64,000 bases of DNA, taken from NCBI GenBank assembly GCA_964535515.1, contig CAZHTA010000002.1:684-64683 (forward strand). Direction: 5' to 3'. Below the pieces are notes generated by a model, which had not been told where the DNA came from, did not search any database, and worked only from the letters and a program-made list of their open reading frames with translations. Made by a program: the position numbers and the translations under genes. The first letter of the stretch is position 1; each line of letters starts with the position of its first letter. This stretch comes from an uncultured Gammaproteobacteria bacterium (lineage in GTDB: Bacteria > Patescibacteriota > Patescibacteriia > Magasanikbacterales > GWA2-37-8). Of the stretch, positions 1 to 56,932 are shown piece after piece.

Positions 1-105
1 TAAATTAATTATTTGTGGCTAATAACTCCCAAATATGATTATTTACTAAACAGAGCTAAGATTAGCCAAAAATATCACTTATCCACTTAAAATACTACCA
101 CTATA

Positions 106-134
106 TTGACAAAAAGGCAAGTTTATGATAATAT
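106..134 (+). promoter_or_regulatory. sigma70-like promoter TTGACA(106-111)-17nt-TAATAT(129-134) upstream of GC-rich non-coding transcript
   Basis: Canonical -35/-10 hexamers with 17-nt spacer read directly; sits about 35 nt upstream of the abrupt switch to GC-rich sequence. Confidence 0.4.
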
Positions 135-140
135 ATTTAG

Positions 141-806
141 TCATTTAGATAATCGTCCGATATCTGCATAGATTTCTATCTATATAGATACCGCTCGGTT
201 ACCGCGCACCGAGGGGGGCCCTCCATCTGGGCTTTGGTATCAAGCGCGTCCTTTCTTTGGATCATCCCATACCTTGGCAGCGTTCGCTGTATGGGAGGTC
301 GGCCAGCTACGTGTGTAAGCTGGGCCACGCAAGTGGTTACTCGAACGCTCTCCTGCCTATTGCCACGCTCTCCAGGCAATCGGTGTACGACGACTTCGGT
401 CGTTGAGTAGGGAGAAACCAACGGAATCGTTGGGAGCAAAAATGGATCAGCACACTGATCCGACTCGTGGTTGGGCAAGCTTCGTCCGACCAACGAGAAC
501 ACTGGGTTCCTGCAAGCAGGGAGCAATTCTGCTTCAGGACGGGCCAGACGATTCTGGCAGTTTCCACCCTGACCTCGGGGGCATGCTCGCGACTACCGCG
601 TCGTGTAGACCATCGGTCGGAATGGCCAACCCCTCCTCTCTCGAGGAGGACACGCCGTCGACACGGTCTAGGGAACTCTAAAGCTCGAGGTAGGGACAAC
701 TACGGGTCCCGGGCCGACGTGTGAGTCGGTCTCTGCGTACGACTGGGATCGGAGGGGGCGCCGACAGCGCCCCCTCCATCCCCAAATTCTCATTGTTTTT
801 TTCTTG
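141..806 (+). ncRNA. candidate large structured ncRNA (unclassified), GC-rich, no credible ORF
   Basis: GC-rich block in an AT-rich genome with many local hairpins, including ACGAC-UUCG-GUCGU, CCUCCUC-ucuc-GAGGAGG and an 11-bp GGAGGGGGCGC/GCGCCCCCUCC stem. All six-frame ORFs overlap each other and are low-complexity. Promoter upstream and T-run/terminators downstream. Confidence 0.4.
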
Positions 807-829
807 AAAGAGAATAGTGAAAAATAAAA

Positions 830-858
830 AATTCCGTTAATAGCGGAATTTTTTGTTT
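830..858 (+). terminator. intrinsic terminator (AATTCCG-loop-CGGAATT then TTTTGTTT)
   Basis: Perfect 7-bp stem directly followed by a T-run; lies downstream of the GC-rich transcript and of an earlier GC hairpin (745-783) plus T7 run (796-802). Confidence 0.5.
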
Positions 859-906
859 CAAATTAATAACCTACTTTTTTACCAGCTAAAAAATTAAAAA
901 CAGATA

Positions 907-935
907 TTGACTCTCAAATATTTTTTTGTTACTAT
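907..935 (+). promoter_or_regulatory. sigma70-like promoter TTGACT-17nt-TACTAT for GC-rich small ORF
   Basis: Hexamers read directly; AGGGGA Shine-Dalgarno about 8 nt upstream of ATG at 968. Confidence 0.4.
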
Positions 936-967
936 CATACCCGGAAGAAAAATCTAGGGGACTCCAC

Positions 968-1297
968 ATGGCATTCGCTGACGCCAAATCCTTGATAAAG
1001 CCACTCACACTGCAAGATGCAGAGCTGTACGTCGGCAACCACAGACCGACAAAGGGTCGGATCGTGAGCCACTCAGAAAACACCAGAGGGCCGCTGTCTG
1101 GCATCATCGCCATTCAGTTGAAACTCCCAAACGGTGACTCCTACCACTGCGCCCCACTGACCGATCCGCTTGGCCTGAGGAAAGTCAACGAAGAGTTCTC
1201 GGTGACCCTGGAACTACGGGGCCGAACCATCCACCTAGAAATCAGCTCAGAACGGTACAACCGGCATGGCGCCAACAAGTCCAGCCACACCTTCTGA
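968..1297 (+). CDS. hypothetical protein (109 aa), GC-rich, foreign-looking composition
   Basis: ORF track frame (track start TTG 926; ATG at 968 has an SD). GC-rich codons. No recognisable domain. Followed by a terminator. Confidence 0.45.
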   Translation: MAFADAKSLIKPLTLQDAELYVGNHRPTKGRIVSHSENTRGPLSGIIAIQLKLPNGDSYHCAPLTDPLGLRKVNEEFSVTLELRGRTIHLEISSERYNRHGANKSSHTF

Positions 1298-1322
1298 TCT
1301 TCTTCCACTTCGGAGGACACAC

Positions 1323-1360
1323 CCCACGCTAGCGAATTCGCCCGTGGGGTTCGCTATTTT
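1323..1360 (+). terminator. intrinsic terminator (CCCCACG...CGTGGGG stem with inner GCG-AATT-CGC, then T-rich tail)
   Basis: Inverted repeat read directly, followed by ttcgctatttt. Confidence 0.5.
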
Positions 1361-1367
1361 CACTCAA

Positions 1368-2465
1368 CTAATATCTTTTTTCAATTACACTCTGTACCAT
1401 ACCAACCATTAAAAGATTAACAATTAAAGACGAACCACCATAACTAACAAAAGGCAATGTCACACCCGTAACTGGTAATACTCCCAAGTTAGCACCGACG
1501 TTAATAACCAACTGACTAAAAAATACAATCGTCACACCACTAACAACTACAGCAGCAAAATCATTATCGGAATGTTTGATAATTCGAATTAATCGCCAAA
1601 ACAAAAAACCAAACAGACCTAAAACTGCAGCTGCACCCGCGAAACCCAATTCTTCACCAATTACTGAAAAGACAAAGTCCGTTTGTGCTTCTGGTAAAAA
1701 TCGTAATTGACTCTGCGAGCCAAAGCCCAGTCCCCGACCAAAAAACTTACCTGAACCAATAGCAATTGCTGCTTGATTAGTATTGTAACCAGCACCTAGT
1801 GGATCTGACTCAGGATAAATAAAAGTTAACACCCGATCTTTTTGATAATCTTGTAAAAGAAAAAACCAACCAAAAACTGCCGCGGCTGTTACTGCAACCA
1901 TCAAACCAACAAGATACAAACGACGCGCCCCAACCAAACACATAATACCAAACCAAACTAGACCCAGTATTACTGCCGATCCAAGGTCGGGTTGCAACAT
2001 CACCAAACCAATTGCTGATAAAGTAACGGCCCCAGTACCAAAGAAAAAAAGCGGACGCTCAAAACGTCGACCAAAACGATACACAATGTAAGCTAAAACA
2101 AGAATCAAACCCCACTTTGCCAATTCCACCGGTTGAAAAGAAAAACCCGCAATAGCAAACCAACCGCGCGTGCCACGAATAGTCGCACCAAAAAACAAAA
2201 CTGCTAATAGTAAAATTAAACAAAGAAGAAAAAACCATTTTGCATAGGAACGAAAAAAACCGCTTTGTCGACTCGAAGCCCAAAACATTAAAACCGTACC
2301 AATTAACAATGCGATTGATTGCTTGCGAAAATATACCAATTCCTGACCGCGTGAGAGATCTACACTGTAGATAGCCGCCAAACCGATCAAAATCAAAAAA
2401 AACACGGCCCCAGTTAATCCCCAATCAAAATTGCGCCATGAAAACTTAGAAAAAAATCCCGACAT
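1368..2465 (-). CDS. SEDS-family peptidoglycan glycosyltransferase (RodA/FtsW)
   Basis: About 10 TM segments. Motifs GTRGW, FQPVELAK, PEAQTDFVFSVIGEELG and PFVSYGGSS are typical of FtsW/RodA. Confidence 0.85.
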   Translation of the reverse strand: MSGFFSKFSWRNFDWGLTGAVFFLILIGLAAIYSVDLSRGQELVYFRKQSIALLIGTVLMFWASSRQSGFFRSYAKWFFLLCLILLLAVLFFGATIRGTRGWFAIAGFSFQPVELAKWGLILVLAYIVYRFGRRFERPLFFFGTGAVTLSAIGLVMLQPDLGSAVILGLVWFGIMCLVGARRLYLVGLMVAVTAAAVFGWFFLLQDYQKDRVLTFIYPESDPLGAGYNTNQAAIAIGSGKFFGRGLGFGSQSQLRFLPEAQTDFVFSVIGEELGFAGAAAVLGLFGFLFWRLIRIIKHSDNDFAAVVVSGVTIVFFSQLVINVGANLGVLPVTGVTLPFVSYGGSSLIVNLLMVGMVQSVIEKRY

Positions 2466-3558: not shown

Positions 3559-6500
3559 ATGCCTATTCGAAGAATAATAAGGGGGAAGATAAAAGCAGAA
3601 AAACCAACTAAACCGGTAGAAGAAAAAGAGGAAAAAATTGAGATTGAACCAGAAATAATAAAAGCTACAATAACCCATAAAGGAACTAAGGAAAGTAAAA
3701 CTTCCTCAGAATACAGCGCTAAGAATATTACGGTTTTGGAAGGATTAGAAGCGGTACGTCGCCGACCTGGCATGTATATTGGTTCTACTGGTCCAGCTGG
3801 TTTACACCATCTTATCTGGGAAGTTGTCGACAACTCAGTCGACGAAGCTATGGCTGGCCACTGCGATCGTATTGAAGTAACTCTGCTCCCCGACCACATG
3901 GTAGAAGTACGTGATAATGGTCGTGGTATCCCAGTTGATATCCACCCTCAACAAGGCGTAAGTGCCTTGGAAGTTATTTTAACCAAACTACATGCTGGTG
4001 GTAAATTTGGTAATGGTGGCTATAAAATTTCTGGCGGTTTGCACGGTGTAGGTGTTACAGTTGTAAACGCTCTCTCTTCTTACTTAAAAGCTGAGGTTCA
4101 CCTTGGTGGAAAAATTTGGGAACAAGAATACACAGCTGGTAATCCACAAAAAAAAGTTAGGGCCGTTGGTACTTGTAAAGATACAGGTACCACTATTACC
4201 TTCCGAGCCGATGACACTATTTTTGAAACAACTAATTATGAATGGAAGGCGATCGTTGACCACCTACGTCAATATGCTTACCTTTCTAAAGGATTACATT
4301 TCATAATCTCCGATAAACGTAGTCCAGAAGAAAAAGCCGTTGATAAAACAGCAATCAGTTTCCCTAATCCAACTTACCAGTTTTACTTTGAAGGTGGTGT
4401 GGCTTCTTATGTTCGTTATATCAATCACAACAAAGAAGCTAAAGGAGAAAACATCTTTTACGCTGACAAAGAAGCGGACGACGTTAATGTCGAAATTGCT
4501 TTACAGTACAGCGAGGATTACACTGAATCACTTTTTGCTTTTACCAACAATATTCATAATCCTGATGGCGGTACCCACGTTCAAGGTTTCCGCACTGCTC
4601 TAACACGCGTCTTAAACAGTTATGCTCGTAACAAAAATATTTTAAAAGAGAAAGACGCCAACCTAACCGGCGAAGACGTACGCGAGGGTTTGAATGCTGT
4701 CATTTCCATTAAAATACGCGAACCACAATTTGAAGGACAAACAAAATCCAAATTAGGCAATACTGAAGCTAAAACAGCAGTTGAAACAATCATGGGTGAA
4801 GAATTTACCATCTTCTTGGAAGAACATCCTAAGGATGCCGAGGCCATTATTGGTAAATGTTTACTCGCCAGCCGTGCTCGCAATGCTGCCAAAATCGCGC
4901 GTGATGCCATTTTGCGCAAAGGTGCTCTAGAAGGATTTACTCTACCAGGCAAACTAGCGGACTGCTCTTCGCGTGATGCTGAAATTTCTGAATTGTACAT
5001 TGTTGAGGGCGACAGTGCGGGCGGATGTTTTGATGGAAATACCAAAGTTGCGTTGACTGATGGACGTAGCTTGTCATTTATAAAATTAGCAGAAGAATGG
5101 GAACAAGGTAAAACAAACTACTGTTACACAATAAAAAACAATGGCGAAATTGGTATTGAAAAAATATTACACCCACGCATTACCAAGAAAAACGCCACCG
5201 TAATTAAAATCACACTAGATAATGATGAAGAATTGATTTGTACCCCAGATCACAAATTTATGTTACGTGACGGTAGTTACGTCCAAGCTAAAGATCTAAA
5301 ATCCGACATTAGCTTGATGCCTCTCTACCGAAAAACTTCTGTTATAGGAGGTCGTATTACAATAGATGGATACGAGATGGTTCTAAACACAAATAGTAGA
5401 TGGAAATTTACTCATCTTCTTGCTGACGAATATAATTTAACACAAAATGTATATCCTCAAATTGAGAACGGACATAAACATCACAAAGATTTTAATAAAC
5501 TGAACAACAACCCAGATAACATAATCCGTTTGTCTAAAGAAGACCATTTACAAATTCACCGCGAACAGGCGCACAAAACTCTCCATCGTCCAGATTCTAT
5601 TGCTAAATGTAACGAAATTAAACGTTCGGCAATTTATAGAAAAAAAATCTCCGACACGATGAAAAATCTTGGTCCGATGTTAAGTGCCCGAGCCAAAAAA
5701 CAATGGCAAAACGAGGAATATAAAAAATTCATGACGCATAAATTTTTGGAATTTTATAATAACAACGCTGAATACCGAGAAAAAAATAACGAGCTGTTAA
5801 ATAAAATACAAAAAGAGTATTGGGGCAACCTAAACAACCGGACAACACAAGCTGAGCGTGTTAAGGAATCTTTTAAGAACCACCCCGACAGAAAAAAATG
5901 GTTAAGTGAATTAGCAAAAAACCAGTGGAGCAGTGCCGAACTCTTAAATTGGCGCGCACAACAAACCACCAAACAATGGACACCTGAATTTCGCACTAAA
6001 CGTCAACAAGCTTACGCCAAAACATATCTTCAACACAGCTTGTCCTTCGCTAAAACACTAGCCGAACGTGGATTAAATTTCATTTCCACTTACAACCAAG
6101 AAAGAAGCGCTTTGCCAAAACGTAATAATAACATTGTAAAATTTGAAACATTATTAAATCGTTTTTTTGCTGGCGACCAAAATCGATTAGTCGAAGCAGT
6201 GAACAACTTCAACCATAAAATTGTCAGAATAGAAAAAGTCACCAAAAAAGTTGACGTATACGATATTGAGGTGCCACACACCCACAACTTCGCTCTAGCA
6301 AGTGGCATTTTCGTACACAACAGCGCCAAACAAGGCCGCAACCGCGAATTTCAAGCCATTCTCCCACTACGCGGTAAAGTATTAAACGTAGAACGCGCAC
6401 GTCTGGACAAGATCTTAGCTAACAACGAATTGAAATCTCTAATTATTGCAATCGGCACTAATATTGGTGAACAATTCGATATTACTAAGTTACGTTATCA

Positions 6501-7053
6501 TCGTATCATTATCATGACCGATGCGGACGTTGATGGTGCCCACATCCGTACTTTACTTTTAACTTTCTTTTACCGCCATTTCCCTGAACTAGTAAACAAT
6601 GGTCATATATATATTGCCCAACCACCACTTTACAGTGTTAAAACTGGTAAAGAAATAAAATATGCTTACAATGATGAAGAAAAAGAATTGCTCCTAGCCG
6701 AATTAAGTAAAAACAAATCTGCTAAGGCTGAAGCAAAACAGAAAAAAGAAGAAGCTGAGGAAGAAGTACCAGCTGAAGAAAACGGTGAAGAAGGCGGAGA
6801 TGCCCAAGCTGAGTCAATTTTAGTGGGTGGAGTAAAAGTTAACATCCAACGTTACAAAGGTTTGGGAGAAATGAACCCGGAACAACTCTGGGAAACTACG
6901 ATGAATCCAGAAAAACGTTTGATGAAACAAGTAACAGTAGAAGACGCCGGACTAGCTAATGAAACCTTTGAAATTTTAATGGGCGAAGATGTCGAGCAAA
7001 GAAAAAAATTCATCCAGACCAACGCCAAATCCGTAAGTAATTTGGATGTATAA
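3559..7053 (+). CDS. gyrB: DNA gyrase subunit B, interrupted in-frame by an intein (extein plus intein = 1164 aa); about 45-aa N-terminal extension
   Basis: GHKL ATPase motifs (LEGLEAVRRRPGMYIGS, GLHHLIWEVVDNSVDE), the TOPRIM motif EGDSAGG split from SAKQGRNREFQAILPLRGKVLNVE, and the C-terminal tail. Confidence 0.9.
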   Translation: MPIRRIIRGKIKAEKPTKPVEEKEEKIEIEPEIIKATITHKGTKESKTSSEYSAKNITVLEGLEAVRRRPGMYIGSTGPAGLHHLIWEVVDNSVDEAMAGHCDRIEVTLLPDHMVEVRDNGRGIPVDIHPQQGVSALEVILTKLHAGGKFGNGGYKISGGLHGVGVTVVNALSSYLKAEVHLGGKIWEQEYTAGNPQKKVRAVGTCKDTGTTITFRADDTIFETTNYEWKAIVDHLRQYAYLSKGLHFIISDKRSPEEKAVDKTAISFPNPTYQFYFEGGVASYVRYINHNKEAKGENIFYADKEADDVNVEIALQYSEDYTESLFAFTNNIHNPDGGTHVQGFRTALTRVLNSYARNKNILKEKDANLTGEDVREGLNAVISIKIREPQFEGQTKSKLGNTEAKTAVETIMGEEFTIFLEEHPKDAEAIIGKCLLASRARNAAKIARDAILRKGALEGFTLPGKLADCSSRDAEISELYIVEGDSAGGCFDGNTKVALTDGRSLSFIKLAEEWEQGKTNYCYTIKNNGEIGIEKILHPRITKKNATVIKITLDNDEELICTPDHKFMLRDGSYVQAKDLKSDISLMPLYRKTSVIGGRITIDGYEMVLNTNSRWKFTHLLADEYNLTQNVYPQIENGHKHHKDFNKLNNNPDNIIRLSKEDHLQIHREQAHKTLHRPDSIAKCNEIKRSAIYRKKISDTMKNLGPMLSARAKKQWQNEEYKKFMTHKFLEFYNNNAEYREKNNELLNKIQKEYWGNLNNRTTQAERVKESFKNHPDRKKWLSELAKNQWSSAELLNWRAQQTTKQWTPEFRTKRQQAYAKTYLQHSLSFAKTLAERGLNFISTYNQERSALPKRNNNIVKFETLLNRFFAGDQNRLVEAVNNFNHKIVRIEKVTKKVDVYDIEVPHTHNFALASGIFVHNSAKQGRNREFQAILPLRGKVLNVERARLDKILANNELKSLIIAIGTNIGEQFDITKLRYHRIIIMTDADVDGAHIRTLLLTFFYRHFPELVNNGHIYIAQPPLYSVKTGKEIKYAYNDEEKELLLAELSKNKSAKAEAKQKKEEAEEEVPAEENGEEGGDAQAESILVGGVKVNIQRYKGLGEMNPEQLWETTMNPEKRLMKQVTVEDAGLANETFEILMGEDVEQRKKFIQTNAKSVSNLDV
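5026..6321 (+). other. intein (432 aa) inside gyrB with HNH-type homing endonuclease domain
   Basis: Starts with Cys directly after GDSAGG. Block B TPDH. Ends VHN followed by extein Ser (SAKQGR). Internal NGHKHHKDFNKLNNNPDNIIRLSKEDHLQIH resembles an HNH motif. Frame verified (5026-3559 and 6322-3559 both divisible by 3). Confidence 0.8.
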
Positions 7054-7090
7054 GAAACAATTAAACATAATAAAAAACCACCTCGCAAAA

Positions 7091-7122
7091 GATGGTTTTT
7101 TATTTCCTTCTATTTTGAACTA
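7091..7122 (+). terminator. intrinsic terminator after gyrB (AACCACC...GATGGTT then T6)
   Basis: Hairpin with one G-U pair followed by a T-run. Confidence 0.5.
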
Positions 7123-7180
7123 ATTCAAAACAAAAGGGACTTGGCGGTCCAGCTGTGCCCGTAAAGGGAGCTGGACCGCC
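7122..7180 (-). terminator. intrinsic terminator for minus-strand GC-rich operon (12-bp GGCGGTCCAGCT/AGCTGGACCGCC stem then T-run on minus strand)
   Basis: Perfect 12-bp inverted repeat at 7143-7180; the minus strand continues as aagtcccttttgtttt. Confidence 0.55.
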
Positions 7181-7264
7181 GAGATAGGAATGACGAGACG
7201 AACGACTCACCCCGATCATCCGACAGCCGCGAAGGCCGAGCAGACGAATCGAGGGGTGTGACGT

Positions 7265-7750
7265 TTAGTTTAGATCGGGGAGATCGAAAAGGCCGAGGAG
7301 CACACCGAATCCGTAAGCGACCCCATTGGTGACAATGGCGGCGCATAACCCCCACCAGATGGCCTCGAGGAAGTATCCGCACGAGAACCATGCGGAGTAG
7401 TCCTTCCCGTCTCCAGCCGCGAGCGCCCAGCGCCACCCATAGTTAGCGGCGAGGAGATGGAGCAACACCGCAACCACAGTGACCACCACCGCCAACGGCC
7501 GGCGGGCGTCGCTGTCCAAGTTGCTGCGGAGGACCAGTGCCCAAACAACCAGGGACACCACTGGCCCGATTGCGAAGGCCATGACCACGCCGAACCAATC
7601 GACTCCATCCAGCTTCGCGCTGCACCAGACGGAATCATCGTACCCGCCACCACCGGCCAACGCAAGGCCGGGGAGAAGGAACATTACCGTGAAGGCCACG
7701 GCGACCATCGACACCAGCAAGCAGGTTTTCCAGGACCTGTTCAAGTTCAC
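7265..7750 (-). CDS. small integral membrane protein (about 4 TM), GC-rich, holin-like by size and topology
   Basis: ORF track. Hydrophobic segments. ATGA start/stop overlap with the upstream CHAP gene (translational coupling). High-GC codon usage. Confidence 0.55.
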   Translation of the reverse strand: MNLNRSWKTCLLVSMVAVAFTVMFLLPGLALAGGGGYDDSVWCSAKLDGVDWFGVVMAFAIGPVVSLVVWALVLRSNLDSDARRPLAVVVTVVAVLLHLLAANYGWRWALAAGDGKDYSAWFSCGYFLEAIWWGLCAAIVTNGVAYGFGVLLGLFDLPDLN

Positions 7751-9159
7751 CTCCTAGACCAGCCCACGCAGGGCAAGTCTTCGATTGTTCCGCGAACCCA
7801 CCAGAACCCTCCGACGAATTCCTGGAGGGTGGCGCACTCGTACCAGCGTGAGGTATTTTGCTGAACGACACACACGGCATCGTCCTTCACCTCAACGACA
7901 ATCGCGACATGCCCAGGGGCACGATGGCTGTTAGCCGCCACACTCTCCCGACCGTCACGATCAAAGATCAGGATATCATTCACCGCCGGCTTCACCGGCG
8001 AACCGTTCAGGAGCACCGACAAGCCCTTAGCGTTTCCGCTATAGAAATAGCTGTCAGCGTGACCGGTGCGCTCCATGTTCCTATGACCCAGGACGGTGGC
8101 GTAGAACCGATTGACCAGCTCCACACACTGCCACCGTTGGCCATAGCCAGACCGCTCCGATTCACCTTCACCGCGGGGGTGCTGATGAATCTCCGCCCCA
8201 CGATAAAGGCCAACGACCGCTCCCTGCTCCGCTTTGATACCAGGCGGAACAAGGACCACCACACCATTCTTGTCTCCGATACGTGGGAACTGCTCCCCAC
8301 GACCAAAGATAAACGACATGACGGTATCGGTGTAATACCCGAACCGACCGTTGCCGGCCAATCCGAGCCACCCACTTGCCTCCCCGAAGGTCGGCCGATA
8401 GTGAGTGAACACCGACGCGGCACTCGACTTTTCCTCATTGTCCATCTGGATGCCCGAGAGCTCCCAGATGTAAACGAGATCGAAGCCAAGCAACGATATA
8501 TCGGACAATTTTTCCACCCGGAACGGATCCGTGCCGAAGCGCTTACCGTTCAAGTGAAAAAAGTGATAACCCCACCACTCGCCCTGATACTCGAAAGCCA
8601 GAACGAGGTGTGTGTTGATTCCAGCCTTTGCCGCAAGAACTTGCGGGTCCATGCGACTCTGCTGAAAGTGATAGCCGGCCACGTAAAGCCGACTCGAGGA
8701 CAACACCTTGGAGAGATCACTGTCGAACGGGACCAATTCCTTAATCTTGTCCTCAGTTGAGGTTGAGAAATCCTTGGTCCGATCAAAAACTTTGCGGAGG
8801 TCGTCCGCATTGTCCTGACCGAACCGCCAAGCCACCGTCACCTCGAGCTTTTGTCTGCCCAAAATGAAGTTAGCAGCCTGGATCACGGCCGAAGCGCAAC
8901 GCTCGTTGTCCCACATCGACTGCGGGATAAACGCCGGCACCGGGCCGTTACCCGGACGGTCCACAAGACTATCCAGGAGTGATCGCACTTCTACCGGTGC
9001 GCGCGGGCTAAGGGGGAACTTACTCCCCCATTCTTCTTCCACATGGTGACGAGCCACGCAGAAGATCGTTACGAGAACCATCACGACCGAAGTCGCAAAA
9101 ATCCCCGTCACAAAAATCGCGTTGCGCACTCGTCTGCGCTCGGTCCGGCTCAGTCTCAC
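7747..9159 (-). CDS. membrane-anchored protein with C-terminal CHAP-domain peptidoglycan amidase/peptidase, GC-rich (GTG start)
   Basis: N-terminal TM (IFVTGIFATSVVMVLVTIFCV). C-terminal QCVELVNRFY...GHVAIVVEV matches the CHAP catalytic Cys/His pattern. GAGGTGA SD before GTG. About 60% GC by eye. Confidence 0.6.
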   Translation of the reverse strand: MRLSRTERRRVRNAIFVTGIFATSVVMVLVTIFCVARHHVEEEWGSKFPLSPRAPVEVRSLLDSLVDRPGNGPVPAFIPQSMWDNERCASAVIQAANFILGRQKLEVTVAWRFGQDNADDLRKVFDRTKDFSTSTEDKIKELVPFDSDLSKVLSSSRLYVAGYHFQQSRMDPQVLAAKAGINTHLVLAFEYQGEWWGYHFFHLNGKRFGTDPFRVEKLSDISLLGFDLVYIWELSGIQMDNEEKSSAASVFTHYRPTFGEASGWLGLAGNGRFGYYTDTVMSFIFGRGEQFPRIGDKNGVVVLVPPGIKAEQGAVVGLYRGAEIHQHPRGEGESERSGYGQRWQCVELVNRFYATVLGHRNMERTGHADSYFYSGNAKGLSVLLNGSPVKPAVNDILIFDRDGRESVAANSHRAPGHVAIVVEVKDDAVCVVQQNTSRWYECATLQEFVGGFWWVRGTIEDLPCVGWSRR

Positions 9160-9370
9160 CTGTCACCTCGTGATTGTGTGGGTTGTTGACGTTTAGCAAA
9201 TATCTCCACAGCGATTGGCATCGCTGTCATTCCTATCAATTGTCAAAGATCTGTTTCCAAACAGCTAAAAGCCTCAGCTTCCGGCTATTCAAAGAAACAG
9301 ATAATAATAGCATAAATTAGCGAAAAAGTCAATATCCTGTCGTCTGTTATTACTATCCCCATTGAATATG

Positions 9371-9399
9371 TTGACAACCTAGCGGAAATATGGTAATAT
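9371..9399 (+). promoter_or_regulatory. sigma70-like promoter TTGACA-17nt-TAATAT for secE-nusG-rplK
   Basis: Hexamers read directly; a small hairpin CGGCC-ctg-GGCCG plus T5 (9416-9433) lies in the 5'UTR. Confidence 0.4.
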
Positions 9400-9449
9400 T
9401 AAATTGTTAATAAATCGGCCCTGGGCCGTTTTTAAATACTTAAAAAAAT

Positions 9450-14047: not shown

Positions 14048-14120
14048 GCGCCTGTAGCTCAGGGGTTAGAGCACTGCCCTTATAAGGCAGGGGTCGATGG
14101 TTCGAAGCCATCCAGGCGCA
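14048..14120 (+). tRNA. tRNA-Ile with anticodon UAU (reads AUA)
   Basis: Cloverleaf folded by hand: acceptor GCGCCUG/CAGGCGC, D-arm GCUC..GAGC, anticodon stem CUGCC/GGCAG with loop cuUAUaa, T-arm GAUGG-UUCGAAG-CCAUC. No encoded CCA. Confidence 0.7.
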
Positions 14121-14128
14121 CTAAACAT

Positions 14129-27048: not shown

Positions 27049-27162
27049 CTTGTTCCAAGACCTCCACAACAGTAAAAATTTTACTGCTCTGGAGGTTCGG
27101 TCTTGAAACAGGTGTAGTGCCTGAGAAAGGCGGCGTGCGAATGCACAACCGAACCGACGGGA

Positions 27163-27504
27163 CTAGCCCTCAGAGAAGACCACATCATACTCATCCACGT
27201 CACGATCAGGGATGTCGAAGAAGGCGATGGTCTCCGAGAACAGCCGCTTCAAGGTGAAACGGTCGCTGGACAAGACCGGCTCCCAGTTCAACAGCGAAAA
27301 AGTGGTCGTCCTCCTGAACCGATAATCGCTGTCATGATGCCAACGCAGAGTCAGGCCCGCCGGATCAAACCCTGACCCACCCTCCACTCGACCGCTGCTT
27401 ATCGTCCCATCGGAGCGATACCCAACGATCCTGGCACGAAGCGCGAGATCATCTTCGTGCTCTTCGCAAAACCTGCGCACTTCCCCCCAAGTGGACATCT
27501 CCAT
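27163..27504 (-). CDS. hypothetical protein (113 aa), GC-rich island C
   Basis: ORF track. GC-rich codons unlike neighbours. No TM and no recognisable domain. Confidence 0.45.
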   Translation of the reverse strand: MEMSTWGEVRRFCEEHEDDLALRARIVGYRSDGTISSGRVEGGSGFDPAGLTLRWHHDSDYRFRRTTTFSLLNWEPVLSSDRFTLKRLFSETIAFFDIPDRDVDEYDVVFSEG

Positions 27505-27641
27505 GCCCCCTTCTACGGTTGCATTAACAATTCCACCCTAACAAAAAAATGGGGGGGGGGTGTCAACTACCCATACCACCCTCTTTGCTCTTATTCCTTT
27601 TCTTCTGTATAATATTGATAGTTAAGTTAATTTAAAAAAAT

Positions 27642-28676: not shown

Positions 28677-28774
28677 ACAGAAAAACACAAAAAATCCCCA
28701 TAAAATATGGGGATTTTTGATATCCAACCTTGACAAGCACTAAATTTTATGATACTCTAAATTTGTTCATTATT

Positions 28775-29115
28775 GGTAATCGCCCCAACCTAGTTGGGAG
28801 AGGAAAGTCCGAACATCTTCCAATGCAAATTGGAAAAAAGGATAGTGGGTAACACCCACCCCCCGATCCGCAAGGTACCGGGGCGGGAAAGCGGCACAGA
28901 GACTATACTATCCCGGCTTACCCGGGAGAAAGGTGAAAAGCGCATGGGGGTTTTGGTTCTAGATCAAAGCTACTATGCCCCATCCACAGCAATGTGGAAT
29001 GGTGCCAAGCCCTATCTGATGCAAGAGCAGCCTTGTGACTGGAATACCTAGTCGCTTGGAAAAGTTCGCTCGCAATGATTCTGATGGTAACATCAGGACT
29101 AGATAAATGATTACC
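28775..29115 (+). ncRNA. rnpB: RNase P RNA (bacterial type)
   Basis: P4 signature GAGGAAAGUCCGAACA near the 5' end and CCCGGCUUACCCGGG further on. P1 formed by GGUAAUC (28775-28781) with GAUUACC (29109-29115). Promoter-like TTGACA at about 28731. The overlapping 85-aa ORF is spurious. Confidence 0.7.
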
Positions 29116-29230
29116 TCCTGTTAAAAAGACTTAGGCCAAAATATACTGAAAAATCCAATACGCGGAAAGTATCAGTGTAATATGGTTCGGTCTTACAACA
29201 GAAGACAAAATTCGGCTTATAATAATGAAC

Positions 29231-29263
29231 AACAAAAATCCCGATTTATTCGGGATTTTTGTT
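29231..29263. terminator. bidirectional intrinsic terminator (AAAAATCCCGA-ttta-TTCGGGATTTTTG)
   Basis: Near-copy of the rplS/uvrA terminator motif; overlaps the stop codon of the minus-strand ORF 29246-29557. Confidence 0.5.
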
Positions 29264-37230: not shown

Positions 37231-37315
37231 AACAACCATAAACAAAAACACCATCCGCAAAAACCTCCTCGCTATATCTACAAATATTTGTAAACATAGC
37301 GGGAAGCGGATGGTG
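37231..37315 (-). terminator. intrinsic terminator for GC-rich island D gene (CACCAUCCGC...GCGGAUGGUG 10-bp stem, then T-run on minus strand)
   Basis: Inverted repeat 37249-37258 with 37306-37315; the minus strand continues tttttgtttatgg. Confidence 0.5.
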
Positions 37316-37342
37316 TCTTGTTGTCTCCTCTCCCCGGGCGCT

Positions 37343-37921
37343 TCATGAAATTAGCGCCTCCTCGATGGCGGCCAAGAAACGGGAGTGCTCGGTCCACAAA
37401 GGGCCGTTGTCGTAGGTTTGTCCTTCTTTTGATACACGACCGAGTGTGTGGTAGTAGCCGCGTTCTTCGAACAGAGAAGCCACGAATTCGATCTCGTCAT
37501 CAGACCAAGCTGAGCCGAGTTCGATGACATCGACTCCACGTTGGACTTCGGGATAGTCAGCCCCGAACGCGAGCAGCTCGCGGAAGGTCGCGGGACGAAG
37601 GTGTCTCCGCCTGAAGCGCGCGAGAATTTCTTCGGTGCGCGCTTTTCTCTTCATGTCAACGAGCACCAAGTCTGTGGTGCTCGCGACACCCCTTTCTTCA
37701 GCACTGTCGAAGCGGGCCATATTCACTCTGATATCGCAGCTGCTGTAGTCCCCAGCGCGTACCAACTCCGCGGTAGGCTTGCGGGGATCGTTGTCGATCC
37801 GGTAGATCCCCTTTTCTTCGACGAGGCGTCGCCTTAGAAATCGGCGAACCTCATCCGGGCACTTCGTTAGTAGTGCCTGGTCTTTCTCCGAGAACAGCTG
37901 AAAGTACGCTTCGGGTTCCAT
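37343..37921 (-). CDS. hypothetical protein (192 aa), GC-rich island D
   Basis: ORF track. High-GC codons. No TM and no recognisable domain. Confidence 0.45.
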   Translation of the reverse strand: MEPEAYFQLFSEKDQALLTKCPDEVRRFLRRRLVEEKGIYRIDNDPRKPTAELVRAGDYSSCDIRVNMARFDSAEERGVASTTDLVLVDMKRKARTEEILARFRRRHLRPATFRELLAFGADYPEVQRGVDVIELGSAWSDDEIEFVASLFEERGYYHTLGRVSKEGQTYDNGPLWTEHSRFLAAIEEALIS

Positions 37922-38131
37922 TTGGCCGTTCCTTTCGTTCTAGGGGTTAACTTGGCCATCTTGGCCGAAGGGAAGTTGGGATTTTCGGTCCCAGCCTTCT
38001 TTTGTGAATATTTAATTAAAATTAAACATACCAAAAGAAAGCAGGGACACATTTTTAAAGAACAACGTAAAATATCACGTTTCATTGATTTTGTCAAGAA
38101 TACCTGTTAAAGTATGGTGGTATTTATACCT

Positions 38132-51559: not shown

Positions 51560-53125
51560 ATGGTAAAAAAAATAAGACTAAAAATTCTCCTAATTGGATT
51601 AACTGCCGTCTTATTGTTTTTGCCACAAACCACTCTTTTCGCCGCTACTAAAAGTCACATTGGCGATCCTTGTATAAACGATATCACTAATGCTGATTGC
51701 GAAGTTGATGGTGCGGATTTAGATTGTGAAAAAAGTAATAAAAAAGACGCTACAAAATATTGCACTGCAAACAGTGACTCCGACTGCATTGCTGAATACG
51801 GTACCCCCGCCAAAGGAAGTTGGGTGCGCAGTAGTGGAACAGATTATACTTATAATCTTGCCTATTGTTATAACTCCGCCACTAAAGAAGTAAAAACCGC
51901 CGCTGGAATAAACACCGACGTCAGCCCAATAGGCAACTTAGTGGGCGCTGTATTTGATTCCCCCGCTACTCAGGCTGCATTATTAGAAGAAGTAAAATCT
52001 TTTAAACCAGGATTAGAAATTCGTTTGCCCGGTTTAACATTTAGTGACCTATCTAACACTATCGACGAGGAAGGATACCTTCATATCCCTTGGATTGGCG
52101 AGTTTATCAAAGCCCTATACAATTTTGGCTTAGTAATTGTTAGTATCGTGGCAGTGGTGATGATCATAATGCAAGGAGCAAAGATTGTTGTTTCGGGTGG
52201 AGAATCAAAGGTAGAGGGATACAAAAAGATTGGACAAATAGCAATTGGTTTGGTTATTGCTTGGGGATCGTATGCCATACTCTATACTATCAATCCAGCG
52301 TTGGTTGAATTTGAGAGCTTGAAAGTTCGCTATATCCAACCAGACAAATTAGAACAATATAATGAATATGTTAACCCATCCGATGCTAGCCCGATTATAA
52401 CTGGCGGAGCATCCACTTTTGGCGCTAATGGTATTCCTGATTTTAAACAATGCGACTCACGTTGGAAAGATTTACCTTACGATGGTGTATACAAAGGGAA
52501 AAAACTAGGATGTTTTAGACAAGTAAAAAACAAAAAAAACCAATATGAAGGCTCGATCTGTACCAGTGGTTGTGGCGTCACTTCTTTAGCTGATGTATTG
52601 GTATATTATGGCTACAGTAATATTACCCCAGTAGACACAGCCCGATATGCCGTAGAAATTGGCGCACGGTCTGGTTGTAATGGCTCAATCGGATCATTGC
52701 TTTGCAATAAAATCGCTACTAAGTGGCCTGACCTCAAATGCAACAACATCAATCCCCAAAAAGAAATAAGCAAAATAGTTTCGCTGCTGCGAGAAAAAAA
52801 ACCCGTAGTATTTTCCTGCCACGATTGTCACGGCTTCACCAAAACCGAACAAGACATCACCTTTGAGGCACACTACCTGGTATTAACCGGAGTAGACGAT
52901 AGTGGTAACTGGTTTTCAGTAAATGATCCAGGAAGGCAAAGTGGAATGGTAAGAATATCCGCTAAGGAATTCGCTGAAGGAAGAGTGGCAACTACTTTCG
53001 CAGTAGAAAAAAAAGACGGCAGCACTGCAAATACTACTAATGGTGAATGTGTTACAATAAGTGCAACATTTAGCGCCACCCAAGCTGACTGCTTAGCACA
53101 AGACGGCACTTGGCAACCACAATAA
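51560..53125 (+). CDS. secreted Cys-rich protein: signal peptide, Cys-rich N-domain, two-TM VirB2/TrbC-like module, C-terminal C39-like cysteine peptidase domain
   Basis: QCDSRWKD...GCGVTSLADVLVYYG...HYLVLTGVDD resembles the C39/papain-like peptidase Cys and His. Central module near-identical to the downstream paralogue. Confidence 0.6.
   Translation: MVKKIRLKILLIGLTAVLLFLPQTTLFAATKSHIGDPCINDITNADCEVDGADLDCEKSNKKDATKYCTANSDSDCIAEYGTPAKGSWVRSSGTDYTYNLAYCYNSATKEVKTAAGINTDVSPIGNLVGAVFDSPATQAALLEEVKSFKPGLEIRLPGLTFSDLSNTIDEEGYLHIPWIGEFIKALYNFGLVIVSIVAVVMIIMQGAKIVVSGGESKVEGYKKIGQIAIGLVIAWGSYAILYTINPALVEFESLKVRYIQPDKLEQYNEYVNPSDASPIITGGASTFGANGIPDFKQCDSRWKDLPYDGVYKGKKLGCFRQVKNKKNQYEGSICTSGCGVTSLADVLVYYGYSNITPVDTARYAVEIGARSGCNGSIGSLLCNKIATKWPDLKCNNINPQKEISKIVSLLREKKPVVFSCHDCHGFTKTEQDITFEAHYLVLTGVDDSGNWFSVNDPGRQSGMVRISAKEFAEGRVATTFAVEKKDGSTANTTNGECVTISATFSATQADCLAQDGTWQPQ
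51985..52327 (+). repeat. about 340-bp near-identical (about 90% by eye) direct repeat, copy 1 of 2, encoding the two-TM module
   Basis: Direct alignment with 53707-54047 shows long identical runs (for example ttacaattttggcttagtaattgttag, caaaggtagagggatacaaaaagattggacaaat). Confidence 0.8.
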
Positions 53126-53130
53126 TTATT

Positions 53131-56126: not shown

Positions 56127-56163
56127 AAAAAAATCCACCTGCCAAATTAGGCAGGTGGTTTAA
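56127..56163. terminator. bidirectional intrinsic terminator (CCACCTGCC-aaatta-GGCAGGTGG) shared by radA(+) and the island E genes(-)
   Basis: A-run upstream gives a T7 run on the minus strand; TTTAATT on the plus strand. Confidence 0.55.
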
Positions 56164-56282
56164 TTCCAGGGAGGCCGACGACGGACACATCCAGTTCGTC
56201 GCGTACATGTACGCATTGAACCTTCAGCATCCGTCGCCGGCTATGAGGAGGGAGAACCGTAGAACCTAAGGCCAAAGACGCC

Positions 56283-56540
56283 TCAGGCAGTCTCGTCGGT
56301 CGGAGCGACGACAGCCTGAGCAGCGGCCTGCTGCTCAATCTCGTACTCGTACACCGCTCTGTGTACGACGCTGACCGGAATCAGCGCCAAGGGCGGTGTC
56401 TCATCATGACCCCGCTTCACGAGCGCGCACACGAAGTGTTGCTCACGAAACGTTCCTCCTATTTTGGGAGGCGGGCCCGGGCGCGTCACATCGACAGCCC
56501 ACTTGTCACCTTTCTTGGTCGTGAAGAACTTATCGCCCAT
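56283..56540 (-). CDS. small hypothetical protein (85 aa), GC-rich island E, downstream member of an overlapping pair
   Basis: ORF track. ATG with GAGG 6 nt upstream. Overlaps the upstream gene by 11 nt. N-terminus KKGDKWAVDV is faintly DUF2188-like. Confidence 0.45.
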   Translation of the reverse strand: MGDKFFTTKKGDKWAVDVTRPGPPPKIGGTFREQHFVCALVKRGHDETPPLALIPVSVVHRAVYEYEIEQQAAAQAVVAPTDETA

Positions 56541-56763
56541 CTCGAGCCTCTTTCGCGGCAGGTGGCACCGGAACCACCAAGTTCATGGCGTTCATGCGTC
56601 CGAAACGCGCCCCGTTTTTGGGGTTGAACACCAAGACCTCGACCGCCTGCTGACCCTCGACGAAGTCGACGTGTGCTGCTGCGACGAGGAGCTTCTGCTC
56701 CCGGTCGCTGCGCTTATACACAACGACCTTCCCGTCGAGTCGCGGATCTCTATTCTTCGCCAC
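56530..56763 (-). CDS. small hypothetical protein (about 77 aa, GTG start), GC-rich island E, upstream member of an overlapping pair
   Basis: Start moved to GTG at 56763, which has a strong GAGGAGG SD 5 nt upstream (the track Met at 56883 lies in AT-rich sequence). Candidate TTGACT-17-TACGAT promoter on the minus strand at about 56850-56880. Confidence 0.4.
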   Translation of the reverse strand: MAKNRDPRLDGKVVVYKRSDREQKLLVAAAHVDFVEGQQAVEVLVFNPKNGARFGRMNAMNLVVPVPPAAKEARDGR

Positions 56764-56932
56764 TTCTTCCTCCTCGGAAATCCAACCCAGCCAAAATGGC
56801 GGGAAAAGCGAGGCGTCGTGCCTCTCAGTTCCACATGGGTTAAAAACAGAAATAATCGTATCAAAAAACCAGCAAAAAGTCAATGCTTTGCCGGTTTTAA
56901 TGGAAAAAATATATTTTAAAATTTTTGTCTCA

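What the first reader, a model, noticed from the sequence alone, without database searches (positions are those of the whole stretch)
141..858. Roughly 650-nt GC-rich, heavily structured non-coding transcript with its own promoter and terminators: candidate large ncRNA of unknown class
Seen in sequence: a TTGACA-17-TAATAT promoter at 106-134 is followed about 7 nt later by an abrupt switch from AT-rich to GC-rich sequence lasting about 640 nt. It ends in an 11-bp GC hairpin (745-783) plus a T7 run, and then a textbook intrinsic terminator (830-858). Inside, every six-frame ORF overlaps the others and translates to low-complexity peptide, while the nucleotide sequence is full of local helices (ACGAC-UUCG-GUCGU with a UUCG tetraloop, CCUCCUC-ucuc-GAGGAGG, CCAGCU..AGCUGG, AAGCAG..CUGCUU, GGAUCA..UGAUCC, GAUACC..GGUAUC). 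Inference: a stable structured RNA, not a protein gene. I checked by eye for tmRNA (GGGG 5' end, tag ORF, T-arm/CCA 3' end), SRP RNA domain IV, RNase P P4 (found elsewhere at 28775), cobalamin B12-box and group II domain V; none fit. It may therefore be a large ncRNA not in the common classes, and it co-resides with a small GC-rich ORF in the same compositional island.
Basis: partly seen in the sequence, partly recalled or inferred. Interest (0 to 1): 0.75.

Follow-up and report, generated by a model that had tools for sequence, protein, structure and literature searches.

The report
Orphan 650-nt structured RNA cassette
A GC-rich stretch of about 650 bases in an AT-rich Magasanikbacteria (CPR) genome looks like a separately transcribed, non-coding RNA gene: compensating mutations keep its fold in the one relative found, it matches no known RNA family, and related bacteria have nothing or unrelated inserts at the same site.

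Summary
Window 141-785 is a sharply bounded island of 53-63% GC in a genome of about 40% GC. A TTGACA-17-TAATAT promoter precedes it, and a GC hairpin and a bidirectional terminator follow it.

It is not coding. It has no period-3 signal, negative codon-usage scores in all six frames, and no ORF kept in the homologue. No Rfam family matches at E<=10.

One homologue was recovered: Logan ERR14064755, locus L088, 92% identical, with the same uvrB-RNA-ORF order. Its substitutions include 4 compensatory double changes (random placement gives a mean of 0.68; 0 of 120 permutations reach 4). About 6 more one-sided changes pass through G-U pairs. The GNRA loop stays GNRA, and a 121-nt block is invariant. 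Only the + strand shows this signal.

Relatives show the RNA is a lineage-specific insert in a conserved slot between the uvrB promoter and the ftsW/rodA terminator. That slot is absent, empty, or holds unrelated cassettes elsewhere, including a different 340-nt structured non-coding element in L086.

Caveats: there is only one homologue and no expression data. Fold z-scores are no better than those of neighbouring GC-rich coding cassettes. The function is unknown.

Verdict: a credible new orphan structured ncRNA.

The parts
106..134 (+). Sigma-70-type promoter of the RNA: -35 TTGACA 106-111, TG 126-127, -10 TAATAT 129-134. The inferred transcription start is about 140-142.
   Evidence: 10 of 12 matches, TG present. 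It is conserved in L088, with one change in the -10 (TAATTT). L086 has it at 80% identity over 46 nt, as TTGACA-17-TATTAT.
92..120 (-). Overlapping divergent promoter for the gene left of the window (uvrB): -35 TTGCCT (120-115) and -10 TAGTAT (97-92). It is part of the conserved left flank of the slot.
   Evidence: Inferred from homology with TTGACT-17-TAGTAT upstream of uvrB in L081, L082, L083 and L086. L088 shows that uvrB starts just left of window position 1. It falls below the threshold of the scan.
141..785 (+). Body of the non-coding RNA cassette, about 645 nt. This is the insert relative to the empty slot seen in relatives.
   Evidence: Boundaries come from the flank alignments A2 and A3. 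Non-coding. No Rfam family. Consensus fold of 201 pairs, compatible with both sequences.
150..201 (+). AT-rich 5' hairpin of about 20 bp with loop UUCU. The loop changes in L088.
   Evidence: Both substitutions in L088 (175, 176) fall in the loop.
177..297 (+). Invariant core: 121 nt with no change between the window and L088.
   Evidence: The probability of so long a change-free run under uniform placement is 0.008.
303..323 (+). Hairpin CCAGCU/AGCUGG. The pair 308/318 changes from U-A to C-G.
324..337 (+). Hairpin with a GNRA tetraloop: GCAA here, GUAA in L088.
   Evidence: position 330 C to U, in the loop.
357..383 (+). Helix 357-364/375-383. The pair 358/382 changes from U.G to G.U. Both changes are transversions, and the pair is valid only on the + strand.
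388..405 (+). Hairpin CGACGAC-UUCG-GUCGUUG (cUUCGg tetraloop), invariant in L088.
502..547 (+). Domain closed by helix 502-505/544-547. The pair 502/547 changes from C-G to U-A.
   Evidence: The consensus prefers this helix to the single-sequence hairpin 543-558, which G547A would break.
607..669 (+). Three-tier stem ending in CCUCCUC-UCUC-GAGGAGG. The pair 610/666 changes from C-G to U-A, and 632 changes from C-G to U-G.
745..783 (+). 3' GC hairpin (5 + 11 bp). It is 24% diverged in L088 yet is still a perfect 14-bp hairpin there.
786..825 (+). Conserved right flank of the slot, including the U-run at 795-801.
   Evidence: Alignment A3 with L081, L082, L083 and L086.
826..854 (.). Bidirectional intrinsic terminator AAAAAAUUCCG-UUAAUAG-CGGAAUUUUUU. 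It is homologous to the ftsW/rodA terminator of relatives.
   Evidence: L088 keeps the stem through paired changes.
907..1356 (+). A second GC-rich cassette, separately inserted. It has a promoter TTGACT-17-TACTAT (907-935), a 109-aa orphan ORF (968-1297) and a terminator (1330-1356). It lies between the ancestral terminator and the ftsW/rodA stop codon at 1368.
   Evidence: The ORF looks coding: period-3 signal 7.0 and codon score +0.15 bits per codon. It has no Pfam, PHROG or PADLOC match and no homologue. Its promoter and first 9 codons are present in L088.

Best explanation
Window 141 to about 800 or 855 (+ strand) is a stand-alone gene for a structured non-coding RNA of about 650-710 nt that belongs to no described family. 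It lies on a small lineage-specific GC-rich cassette in a Candidatus Magasanikbacteria (Patescibacteria/CPR) genome. The cassette occupies a conserved intergenic slot between the divergent uvrB promoter region and the ftsW/rodA terminator.

Shown:
- It is non-coding.
- It is an insert relative to close relatives.
- It is conserved, with the same gene order, in an independent assembly.
- Its substitutions preferentially keep a multi-domain secondary structure on the + strand.

Inferred:
- It is transcribed from the TTGACA-17-TAATAT promoter.
- It ends at the 3' hairpin plus U-run, or at the bidirectional terminator.

Most likely mode of action (a weak inference, about 0.35 given that it is an RNA gene): it acts in trans as a stable folded RNA, a scaffold or binding platform like other large 'ornate' bacterial RNAs, with the invariant 5' domain (177-297) as its functional core. 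It is less likely to act as an antisense regulator or a cis-acting leader.
For: Non-coding:
- The period-3 GC signal is 1.5 for 190-780, against 5.8-28 for every ORF of the other GC islands.
- Codon-usage log-odds, trained on the island genes, are negative for every ORF and for every 150-nt window in all six frames. Real island ORFs score +0.12 to +0.18.
- There are no Pfam hits.

No known family.

Homologue: a phmmer search with a spurious ORF from the region found P0142. This led to L088, a Logan contig that is 92.3% identical over 992 nt, with uvrB on one side and the start of the ORF cassette on the other. An independent assembly also rules out a chimeric contig.

No ORF is conserved: there are frame-breaking indels and a premature stop, and non-synonymous to synonymous changes are 12:3, 12:4 and 5:1.

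Structure is conserved:
- The RNAalifold consensus has 201 pairs and 4 compensatory double changes.
- Running the same pipeline on 120 alignments with the same substitutions placed at random gave a mean of 0.68 doubles and a maximum of 3 (0 of 120 reached 4). Consensus energy was -220.8 +/- 6.5, against -238.1 observed.
- Slid-partner controls gave 0, 0, 1 | 4 | 0, 0, 0.
- The minus strand gives only 1 double change (P = 0.48).
- The GNRA loop stays GNRA, and the 3' hairpin stays perfect despite 24% divergence.
- There is a 121-nt change-free block (P = 0.008).

Promoter and terminators.

Fold z-scores are -8.55 (window) and -5.18 (L088).
Against: - There is only one homologue, and it is close (93%). 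All comparative statistics rest on 34 substitutions.
- The RNA body as a whole is barely more conserved (7.0% diverged) than the right flank (9.9%), and less conserved than the promoter flank (1.0%).
- About 10 changes break helices of the single-sequence MFE fold. These include a 5-nt deletion that removes one strand of the long-range helix 341-348/735-742.
- Thermodynamic stability is no greater than in neighbouring GC-rich coding cassettes.
- The two closest relatives by RodA identity (L001 and L087) lack the element entirely, so it is dispensable.
- No related sequence turned up in any other search: INPHARED phage genomes, PLSDB plasmids, IMG/VR viral contigs, JGI metagenome pattern scans, or 65 related loci.
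- There are no expression data.
Confidence: 0.62

Rival explanations
1. It is recently acquired, functionless GC-rich DNA. A foreign fragment was inserted in a recombination-prone intergenic slot and is transcribed, if at all, only because it landed after a resident promoter. On this view the apparent conservation of structure is noise from a short divergence time.
For: - The slot turns over. It is absent in L001 and L087 and empty in L083-L085. It holds a membrane-protein cassette in L081 and L082 and an unrelated non-coding element in L086.
- The RNA body diverges about as fast as the right flank.
- The sequence is an orphan in every search.
- The 53-63% GC matches the neighbouring coding cassettes, so it could simply reflect the source gene pool.
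Against: - A random 645-nt fragment from a gene-dense donor would rarely lack any coding signal in all six frames.
- The insert runs exactly from the promoter to a hairpin.
- Compensatory changes exceed the permutation control and are strand-specific.
- There is a 121-nt invariant block.
- Neutral GC-rich sequence should decay in a genome whose intergenic DNA is 22-30% GC.
Confidence: 0.2
2. It is the RNA partner or regulator of the adjacent 109-aa ORF. That could mean a two-gene module such as a type III toxin-antitoxin-like pair or a small RNP, or a long leader whose terminators control read-through into the ORF.
For: - The layout is RNA gene, terminators, then a small orphan ORF on the same strand.
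- Both are present in the window and in L088, and both are absent from all other relatives.
Against: - The window and L088 are close relatives, so the co-occurrence is a single observation.
- The ORF has its own conserved promoter.
- The flank alignments show the two cassettes lie on opposite sides of the ancestral ftsW/rodA terminator. That implies two separate insertions.
- The RNA has no tandem repeats.
- The ORF matches no toxin or defence family.
- L086 carries a non-coding element in this slot with no ORF beside it.
Confidence: 0.1
3. It is a protein-coding gene or a decayed pseudogene from the GC-rich cassette gene pool.
For: - Overlapping ORFs of 85-120 aa are present.
- A gene caller called a 138-aa ORF on the homologue.
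- The other GC islands in the window are coding.
Against: - There is no period-3 signal and no codon bias, either locally or globally.
- No protein family matches.
- Reading frames are not kept between the two copies, and non-synonymous to synonymous changes run about 3:1.
Confidence: 0.03
4. It is a DNA-level element, such as a recombination or attachment site, a replication- or transfer-related structured region, or the end of an unrecognised mobile element. On this view the hairpins matter in DNA, not in RNA.
For: - It sits in a site of repeated insertion and deletion.
- The L086 element folds equally well on both strands (z = -9.0 and -10.4).
Against: - In this element the signal is strand-specific. 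z is -8.55 against -4.47, there are 4 compensatory pairs against 1, and several changes pass through G-U pairs, which are mismatches in DNA and on the other strand.
- No terminal repeats, target duplications or recombinase gene were seen.
Confidence: 0.05

Closest known systems
ROOL and GOLLD RNAs (large ornate RNAs of phages and prophages; Rfam families; cryo-EM nanocages, PMC12286853)
   Same: Like them, it is a large (580-800+ nt), multi-domain, independently transcribed bacterial RNA. It has no known protein partner or function, a patchy distribution, and a place in variable, horizontally moving DNA.
   Different: Neither covariance model matches. The context here is not a prophage or tRNA island: the nearest tRNA is 13 kb away, and there are no phage hits. 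Only two copies are known. Oligomerisation was not tested.
OLE RNA (about 600 nt, Bacillota extremophiles)
   Same: The size is similar, and both are highly structured, stand-alone RNAs.
   Different: There is no match to the OLE model. No oapA-type neighbour was seen. The host phylum is different. OLE is widely conserved within its lineage, whereas this RNA is missing from the closest relatives.
Type III toxin-antitoxin loci (ToxIN-like)
   Same: The order is the same: promoter, RNA gene, terminator, small protein gene, all on one strand.
   Different: The RNA is not a tandem-repeat array. The protein has no ToxN/CptN/TenpN or other PADLOC or Pfam match. The ORF also has its own promoter.
Integron gene cassettes
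   Same: A fixed genomic site next to a resident promoter holds different, unrelated inserts in related genomes, including an empty state.
   Different: No integrase and no attC-like shared recombination site were seen at the cassette ends. The cassettes carry their own terminator hairpins and, in part, their own promoters. One insert is an RNA gene.
GC-rich intergenic regions of AT-rich genomes used to find structured RNAs (GC-IGR approach, Breaker laboratory; cited from my own knowledge)
   Same: The discovery signature is identical: a long GC-rich intergenic region in an AT-rich genome.
   Different: GC-richness is not specific to RNA here. Coding cassettes in the same genome are equally GC-rich, while this genome's RNase P RNA is only 45% GC.

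Membership tests
Any Rfam 15 family (including OLE, ROOL, GOLLD, HEARO, raiA, group I/II introns, tmRNA, RNase P, 6S, SRP RNA, cobalamin and other riboswitches) | A match to the family covariance model at or near its gathering score | tested here: not met
   cmscan of the whole window at gathering score found only RNase P and four tRNAs, all elsewhere. cmscan of 1-1500 at E<=10 with relaxed filters found nothing inside 141-744. All hits lie on the terminator region and are far below gathering score. The homologue gave the same result.
tmRNA | A tRNA-like domain plus a tag reading frame | tested here: not met
   ARAGORN finds no tmRNA in the window, and there is no RF00023 hit.
Structured non-coding RNA gene (generic) | No protein-coding signal | tested here: met
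   Period-3 signal, codon usage, Pfam, and the lack of any conserved frame or synonymous bias in the homologue.
Structured non-coding RNA gene (generic) | Base pairs kept by compensatory substitutions among homologues | tested here: met
   There are 4 double changes against 0.68 expected (0 of 120 permutations), plus one-sided changes through G-U pairs, on the + strand only. With only two sequences this is suggestive, not of R-scape grade.
Structured non-coding RNA gene (generic) | A discrete transcript | not testable with these tools
   The promoter and terminators are predicted and conserved. No RNA-seq data were available.
Type III toxin-antitoxin | The antitoxin RNA is made of tandem direct repeats | tested here: not met
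   Tandem Repeats Finder found 0 arrays in 1-1500 at score >= 30.
Type III toxin-antitoxin | The adjacent protein is a ToxN/CptN/TenpN-type endoribonuclease | tested here: not met
   The 109-aa ORF has no Pfam, PADLOC or PHROG match. The AlphaFold2 model has pLDDT 38 and is uninformative.
Integron cassette | An IntI integrase with attI nearby, and an attC at the cassette end | tested here: not met
   The neighbours are uvrB and ftsW/rodA. The cassette ends in the window, L081 and L086 share no motif beyond the slot flanks. Only about 1.4 kb to the right of the element and about 1 kb to its left (through L088) were inspected for an integrase.
ROOL/GOLLD-type ornate RNA | Location in a prophage or phage, often beside tRNA arrays (PMC12286853) | tested here: not met
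   There is no tRNA within 13 kb, no phage similarity, and no phage-like neighbours.
ROOL/GOLLD-type ornate RNA | Homo-oligomeric RNA-only assembly | not testable with these tools
   This needs in vitro transcription followed by native gels or cryo-EM.

The most novel reading that the evidence does not exclude
This RNA would be the first described member of a set of large structured RNAs of CPR bacteria. They would be carried, together with small orphan protein genes, on exchangeable GC-rich promoter-to-terminator cassettes that occupy conserved intergenic slots. A relative (L086) has an unrelated, equally structured 340-nt non-coding element in the same slot under the same promoter. That would make the slot a swap site for accessory RNAs, a form of accessory-gene turnover not described for RNA genes.
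Probability: 0.3. Interest if true: 0.75.

Novelty: new member of a known kind. Interest (0 to 1): 0.55.

Why it matters
Bacterial non-coding RNAs longer than 500 nt are rare, and those studied so far (ribosomal RNAs, RNase P, group II introns, OLE, ROOL, GOLLD) have repaid the effort with ribozymes or unprecedented RNA architectures. To my knowledge, no such large RNA has been described from the Candidate Phyla Radiation, whose reduced genomes leave little room for non-functional DNA. A GC-rich, structure-conserving 650-nt RNA there is a concrete target for transcriptomics and structure probing. Its setting, a slot that holds different GC-rich cassettes in near relatives, may also show how these ultra-small bacteria exchange accessory functions.

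Tried and rejected
- **Known families:** Rfam at gathering and relaxed thresholds gave nothing.
- **Direct similarity:** blastn (distant mode) against phage and plasmid collections gave nothing. blastn, nhmmer and tblastx against 80 RodA-anchored loci gave nothing beyond the terminator flank.
- **Pattern scans:** ORF translations of the region were used as degenerate DNA probes against IMG/VR and JGI metagenome contigs. Five scans found nothing. Exact conserved 20-mer and 26-mer patterns in IMG/VR also found nothing.
- **Exact look-ups:** look-ups of window proteins and spurious ORFs found nothing on record.
- **Covariance model:** a model of the 5' domain (146-340) searched over 1.07 Mb of related loci found only its two training sequences.
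- **L086 as a diverged homologue:** rejected. The Smith-Waterman score was 21, against 19.5 +/- 2 for shuffles.
- **Remnant of the L081/L082 membrane-protein gene:** rejected by tblastn.
- **Antisense targeting within the window:** the longest complementarity was 14 nt (E = 0.13).
- **Fold z-score as proof of an RNA gene:** rejected as non-discriminating, because coding cassettes score the same.
- **Structure of the 109-aa ORF:** the model has pLDDT 38, so no fold search was made.
- **Literature:** no report was found of GC-rich cassettes or large ncRNAs in Patescibacteria.
- the ATG ORF starts at 442, not 443. The '443-681' query therefore tested the 467-724 frame. The 403-681 frame was tested against Pfam only.
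Full report
**1. What is in the sequence**

The window is a genome of about 40% GC. RodA/FtsW (1368-2465, minus strand) is 91% identical to that of an uncultured MAG (L001). It is 60-68% identical to many Candidatus Magasanikbacteria MAGs, so the organism is a Magasanikbacteria-like member of the Patescibacteria (CPR).

At the finding's coordinates the following hold:
- GC content in 100-nt windows climbs from 0.30 to 0.53-0.63 between about 190 and 800, then falls to 0.22.
- The best sigma-70-like site in the first 1.5 kb is TTGACA-17-TAATAT at 106-134, with an extended -10 TG.
- The island ends in a 5 + 11 bp GC hairpin (745-783). A conserved U-rich spacer follows, and then a bidirectional terminator hairpin at 826-854.

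Four corrections apply:
- The first 50 nt of the putative transcript are AT-rich and form a long hairpin.
- The T-run lies 12 nt after the first hairpin, so that hairpin is not a canonical terminator.
- The GAUACC/GGUAUC pairing is not used in the fold.
- The element is not unique in composition. Five more GC-rich islands lie in the window: 941-1370, 7111-9230, 27081-27590, 37291-37990 and 56131-56850.

**2. It is not coding**

- The period-3 signal of GC content is 1.5 times noise for 190-780. It is 5.8-28 for every ORF of the other islands and 7.0 for the neighbouring ORF 968-1297.
- A codon-usage log-odds score trained on the island genes gives +0.12 to +0.18 bits per codon for real island ORFs (leave-one-out) and +0.15 for ORF 968-1297. 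It gives -0.14 to -0.45 for every ORF in 141-800. No 150-nt window in any of the six frames is positive.
- Local frame plots show only the scatter expected by chance.
- None of the ORF translations hits Pfam.

**3. It is no known RNA**

cmscan against all 4227 Rfam 15 families finds only RNase P RNA and four tRNAs elsewhere in the window. With E<=10 and relaxed filters on 1-1500, every hit lies on the terminator region, far below gathering score. Nothing falls inside 141-744. ARAGORN finds no tmRNA.

**4. Thermodynamics alone does not decide**

The + strand folds at z = -8.55 against dinucleotide shuffles, and the - strand at -4.47. However, GC-rich coding cassettes of the same window reach z = -8.3 and -8.05 on their coding strands. 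In 150-nt windows the RNA region (z -0.8 to -5.3) is no more structured than the CHAP gene mRNA. I therefore give this argument little weight.

**5. Genomic context: a variable slot**

Loci anchored on RodA show the following order in relatives: secE-nusG-L11 | GC-rich CHAP-domain gene plus membrane protein | gyrB | 320-aa gene | rodA | slot | uvrB.

The rodA|uvrB slot takes five different states:

| Locus or loci | RodA identity to window | State of the slot |
|---|---|---|
| L001, L087 (nearest relatives) | >=90% | No intergenic region; uvrB starts 2-32 nt after rodA |
| L083, L084, L085 | same 90% RodA cluster as L081/L082 | Empty: terminator, about 60 nt, divergent promoter |
| L081, L082 | same 90% RodA cluster | GC-richer cassette with a 194/172-aa membrane protein |
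| L086 | 82% | About 340-nt GC-rich element with no called gene |
| Window | - | RNA cassette, plus a separate ORF cassette on the far side of the ancestral terminator |

The L086 element has no period-3 signal and no Rfam match, and it folds at z about -9 on both strands. It shows no similarity to the window RNA.

The flanks are homologous in all these loci. The left flank holds the palindromic TTGAC-N5-GTCAA region with the uvrB promoter. The right flank is a CTTTGTTTT...TTGAAAATAGAGG spacer followed by the AAAAAATCC...GGATTTTTT terminator (alignments A2 and A3). This fixes the RNA cassette at about 141-785. It also shows that the ORF cassette (about 855-1360) is a separate insertion, lying between the rodA stop codon and the ancestral terminator.

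The window and L086 also share the -10 region of the cassette-ward promoter (80% identity over 46 nt).

**6. A homologue, found indirectly**

Direct DNA searches failed. Gene callers often call spurious ORFs on GC-rich RNA genes, so I searched the 120-aa ORF 337-699(-) against 1.84 billion protein representatives. One hit, P0142, is 87% identical over 67 residues (E = 7e-32).

Its contig is L088 (Logan, run ERR14064755, 1943 bp). Its reverse complement aligns to window 7-994 at 92.3% identity over 992 nt. L088 carries:
- the 5' part of uvrB to the left, confirming that uvrB adjoins the window start;
- the same promoter, with one change in the -10;
- the whole RNA and both hairpins;
- the ORF-cassette promoter and the first nine codons of the ORF.

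An independent assembly with the same junctions also rules out a chimeric contig.

**7. What the substitutions say**

Divergence by region:

| Region | Divergence |
|---|---|
| Promoter flank, 36-140 | 1.0% |
| RNA body, 141-744 | 7.0% (37 events, including deletions of 1, 1 and 5 nt) |
| 3' hairpin, 745-785 | 24% |
| Right flank, 786-967 | 9.9% |

The 3' hairpin is nonetheless still a perfect 14-bp hairpin in L088.

No reading frame is kept:
- P0142 fuses the window's two minus-strand ORFs across a frame shift.
- The ATG-initiated + strand ORF (442-681, preceded by GGGAG) is cut by a CGA-to-TGA change at codon 16.
- ORFs without indels show non-synonymous to synonymous codon changes of 12:3, 12:4 and 5:1. 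That is about the 3:1 ratio expected without protein-level selection (my estimate, not computed here).

The RNAalifold consensus has 201 pairs, all compatible with both sequences. Four pairs changed on both sides: 308/318 U-A to C-G, 358/382 U.G to G.U, 502/547 C-G to U-A, and 610/666 C-G to U-A. About six more in the body are one-sided changes through G-U pairs.

RNAalifold chooses its structure from the same data, so I ran a matched control. The same 34 substitutions were placed at random positions holding the same base, and the same pipeline was run. This gave:
- a mean of 0.68 double changes and a maximum of 3, with 0 of 120 permutations reaching 4;
- consensus energy of -220.8 +/- 6.5, against -238.1 observed, again 0 of 120.

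Other controls agree. The slid-partner control gives 0, 0, 1 | 4 | 0, 0, 0. On the reverse complement only one double change appears (P = 0.48). Together with the G-U intermediates, this assigns the signal to the + strand, the strand defined by the promoter and terminators.

Two further details fit. The tetraloop at 329-332 changes from GCAA to GUAA and so stays GNRA. A 121-nt stretch (177-297) carries no change at all (P = 0.008).

Against this, roughly ten changes break helices of the window's single-sequence MFE fold, so parts of that fold are not conserved. The sample is also just two sequences.

**8. Interpretation**

Shown:
- The element is a non-coding, lineage-specific insert in a conserved slot.
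- It is present with the same junctions in two independent assemblies.
- It has strand-specific signs of selection on secondary structure and an invariant 5' domain.
- It matches no described family.

Inferred:
- It is transcribed from the conserved promoter to the hairpin plus U-run (about 660 nt) or to the bidirectional terminator (about 715 nt).

Function is not established. I commit, weakly, to a trans-acting folded RNA acting as a scaffold or binding platform, in the manner of the large ornate RNAs. Three observations favour this:
- It has no complementarity to other parts of the window.
- It is separated from the next gene by two hairpins and a promoter.
- It has no repeat structure.

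The rivals are junk DNA of recent foreign origin, a module with the 109-aa ORF, a protein gene, and a DNA-level element. Each is weighed in its own section of this report.

**9. Comparison with known systems**

By size, complexity and residence in variable DNA, it most resembles ROOL, GOLLD and OLE. Those are encoded in phages and prophages near tRNA islands, or in extremophile Bacillota, and form RNA-only assemblies (PMC12286853). It fails the sequence and structure membership test for all three and lacks their genomic contexts. It is therefore not a member of those families, only of the same broad kind.

The order of RNA, terminator and small ORF recalls type III toxin-antitoxin loci, but the defining repeats and toxin fold are absent. 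The slot recalls an integron, but no integrase or attC was seen. Horizontal exchange among Patescibacteria is documented (PMC12455944). I found no report of GC-rich cassettes of this type.

**10. Verdict**

The element is a credible, previously undescribed structured ncRNA with a very narrow known distribution.

Interest is moderate to high for RNA specialists. It is limited by the single homologue, by the lack of expression data, and by the element being dispensable in the nearest relatives.

Noticed in passing
window 941-1370, 7111-9230, 27081-27590, 37291-37990, 56131-56850: Five further sharply bounded islands of 55-60% GC lie in this ~40% GC genome. Each is a small promoter-to-terminator cassette with orphan genes (109, 470+161, 113, 192 and 85/117 aa). 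Only the 470-aa protein has a recognisable domain (CHAP). The cassette at 7054-9446 is missing from the close relative L001. Similar cassettes with small membrane proteins occur in other Magasanikbacteria loci (L001 4791-5170, L013 14520-14920, L014 2111-2720, L020 5511-6280).
   Followed up: partly
L086 7770-8145 (minus strand of the locus): A relative with 82% RodA identity carries a different GC-rich element of about 340 nt in the same rodA|uvrB slot, under the homologous promoter. No gene is called on it, it has no period-3 signal and no Rfam match, and it folds at z = -9.0 and -10.4 on the two strands. It may be a second orphan structured RNA.
   Followed up: partly
window 7900-9100 and 56170-56830, minus strand: The coding strands of the GC-rich protein cassettes fold far better than dinucleotide shuffles (z = -8.3, -5.8 and -8.05). 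This is as strong as RNase P RNA (-7.4). Host genes give z near 0. The cause is unexplained; it may come from period-3 GC patterning or from selection for stable mRNAs.
   Followed up: partly
window 27551-27560: A run of ten G (C10 on the minus strand) sits directly after the TTGACA -35 box of the promoter for the 113-aa cassette gene (27163-27504, minus strand). A homopolymer in a promoter spacer is the classic arrangement for phase-variable expression.
   Followed up: no
window 7265-9159 (minus strand); L081 4977-6822; L082 2936-4765; L083 3109-4786: The secE|gyrB slot is also variable. The window, L081 and L082 hold a GC-rich pair, a CHAP-domain protein plus a multi-pass membrane protein (55% aa identity, against about 88% for RodA). 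L083 and L084 hold four small orphan ORFs instead. L001 has about 170 bp there.
   Followed up: partly
window 14048-14121: There is a tRNA-Ile with anticodon UAU, which is uncommon in bacteria. Most bacteria read AUA with a lysidine-modified CAU tRNA.
   Followed up: no
window 28764-29235: The RNase P RNA (class A, 143.8 bits) is 472 nt long. It has an insertion of about 75 nt near its 3' end (about 29131-29203) and other expansions relative to the 367-position model.
   Followed up: no
window 5012-6321: The 1164-aa ORF (3559-7053) contains about 1.3 kb that is absent from the orthologous genes in L001, L081, L082, L083 and L086. In those relatives the corresponding gene is gyrB. The extra segment could be an intein or another inserted domain.
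   Followed up: no
window 51987-52286 and 53708-54007: A 300-nt direct repeat at 86% identity lies inside two adjacent large ORFs (51560-53125 and 53110-54747). They are probably tandem paralogues.
   Followed up: no
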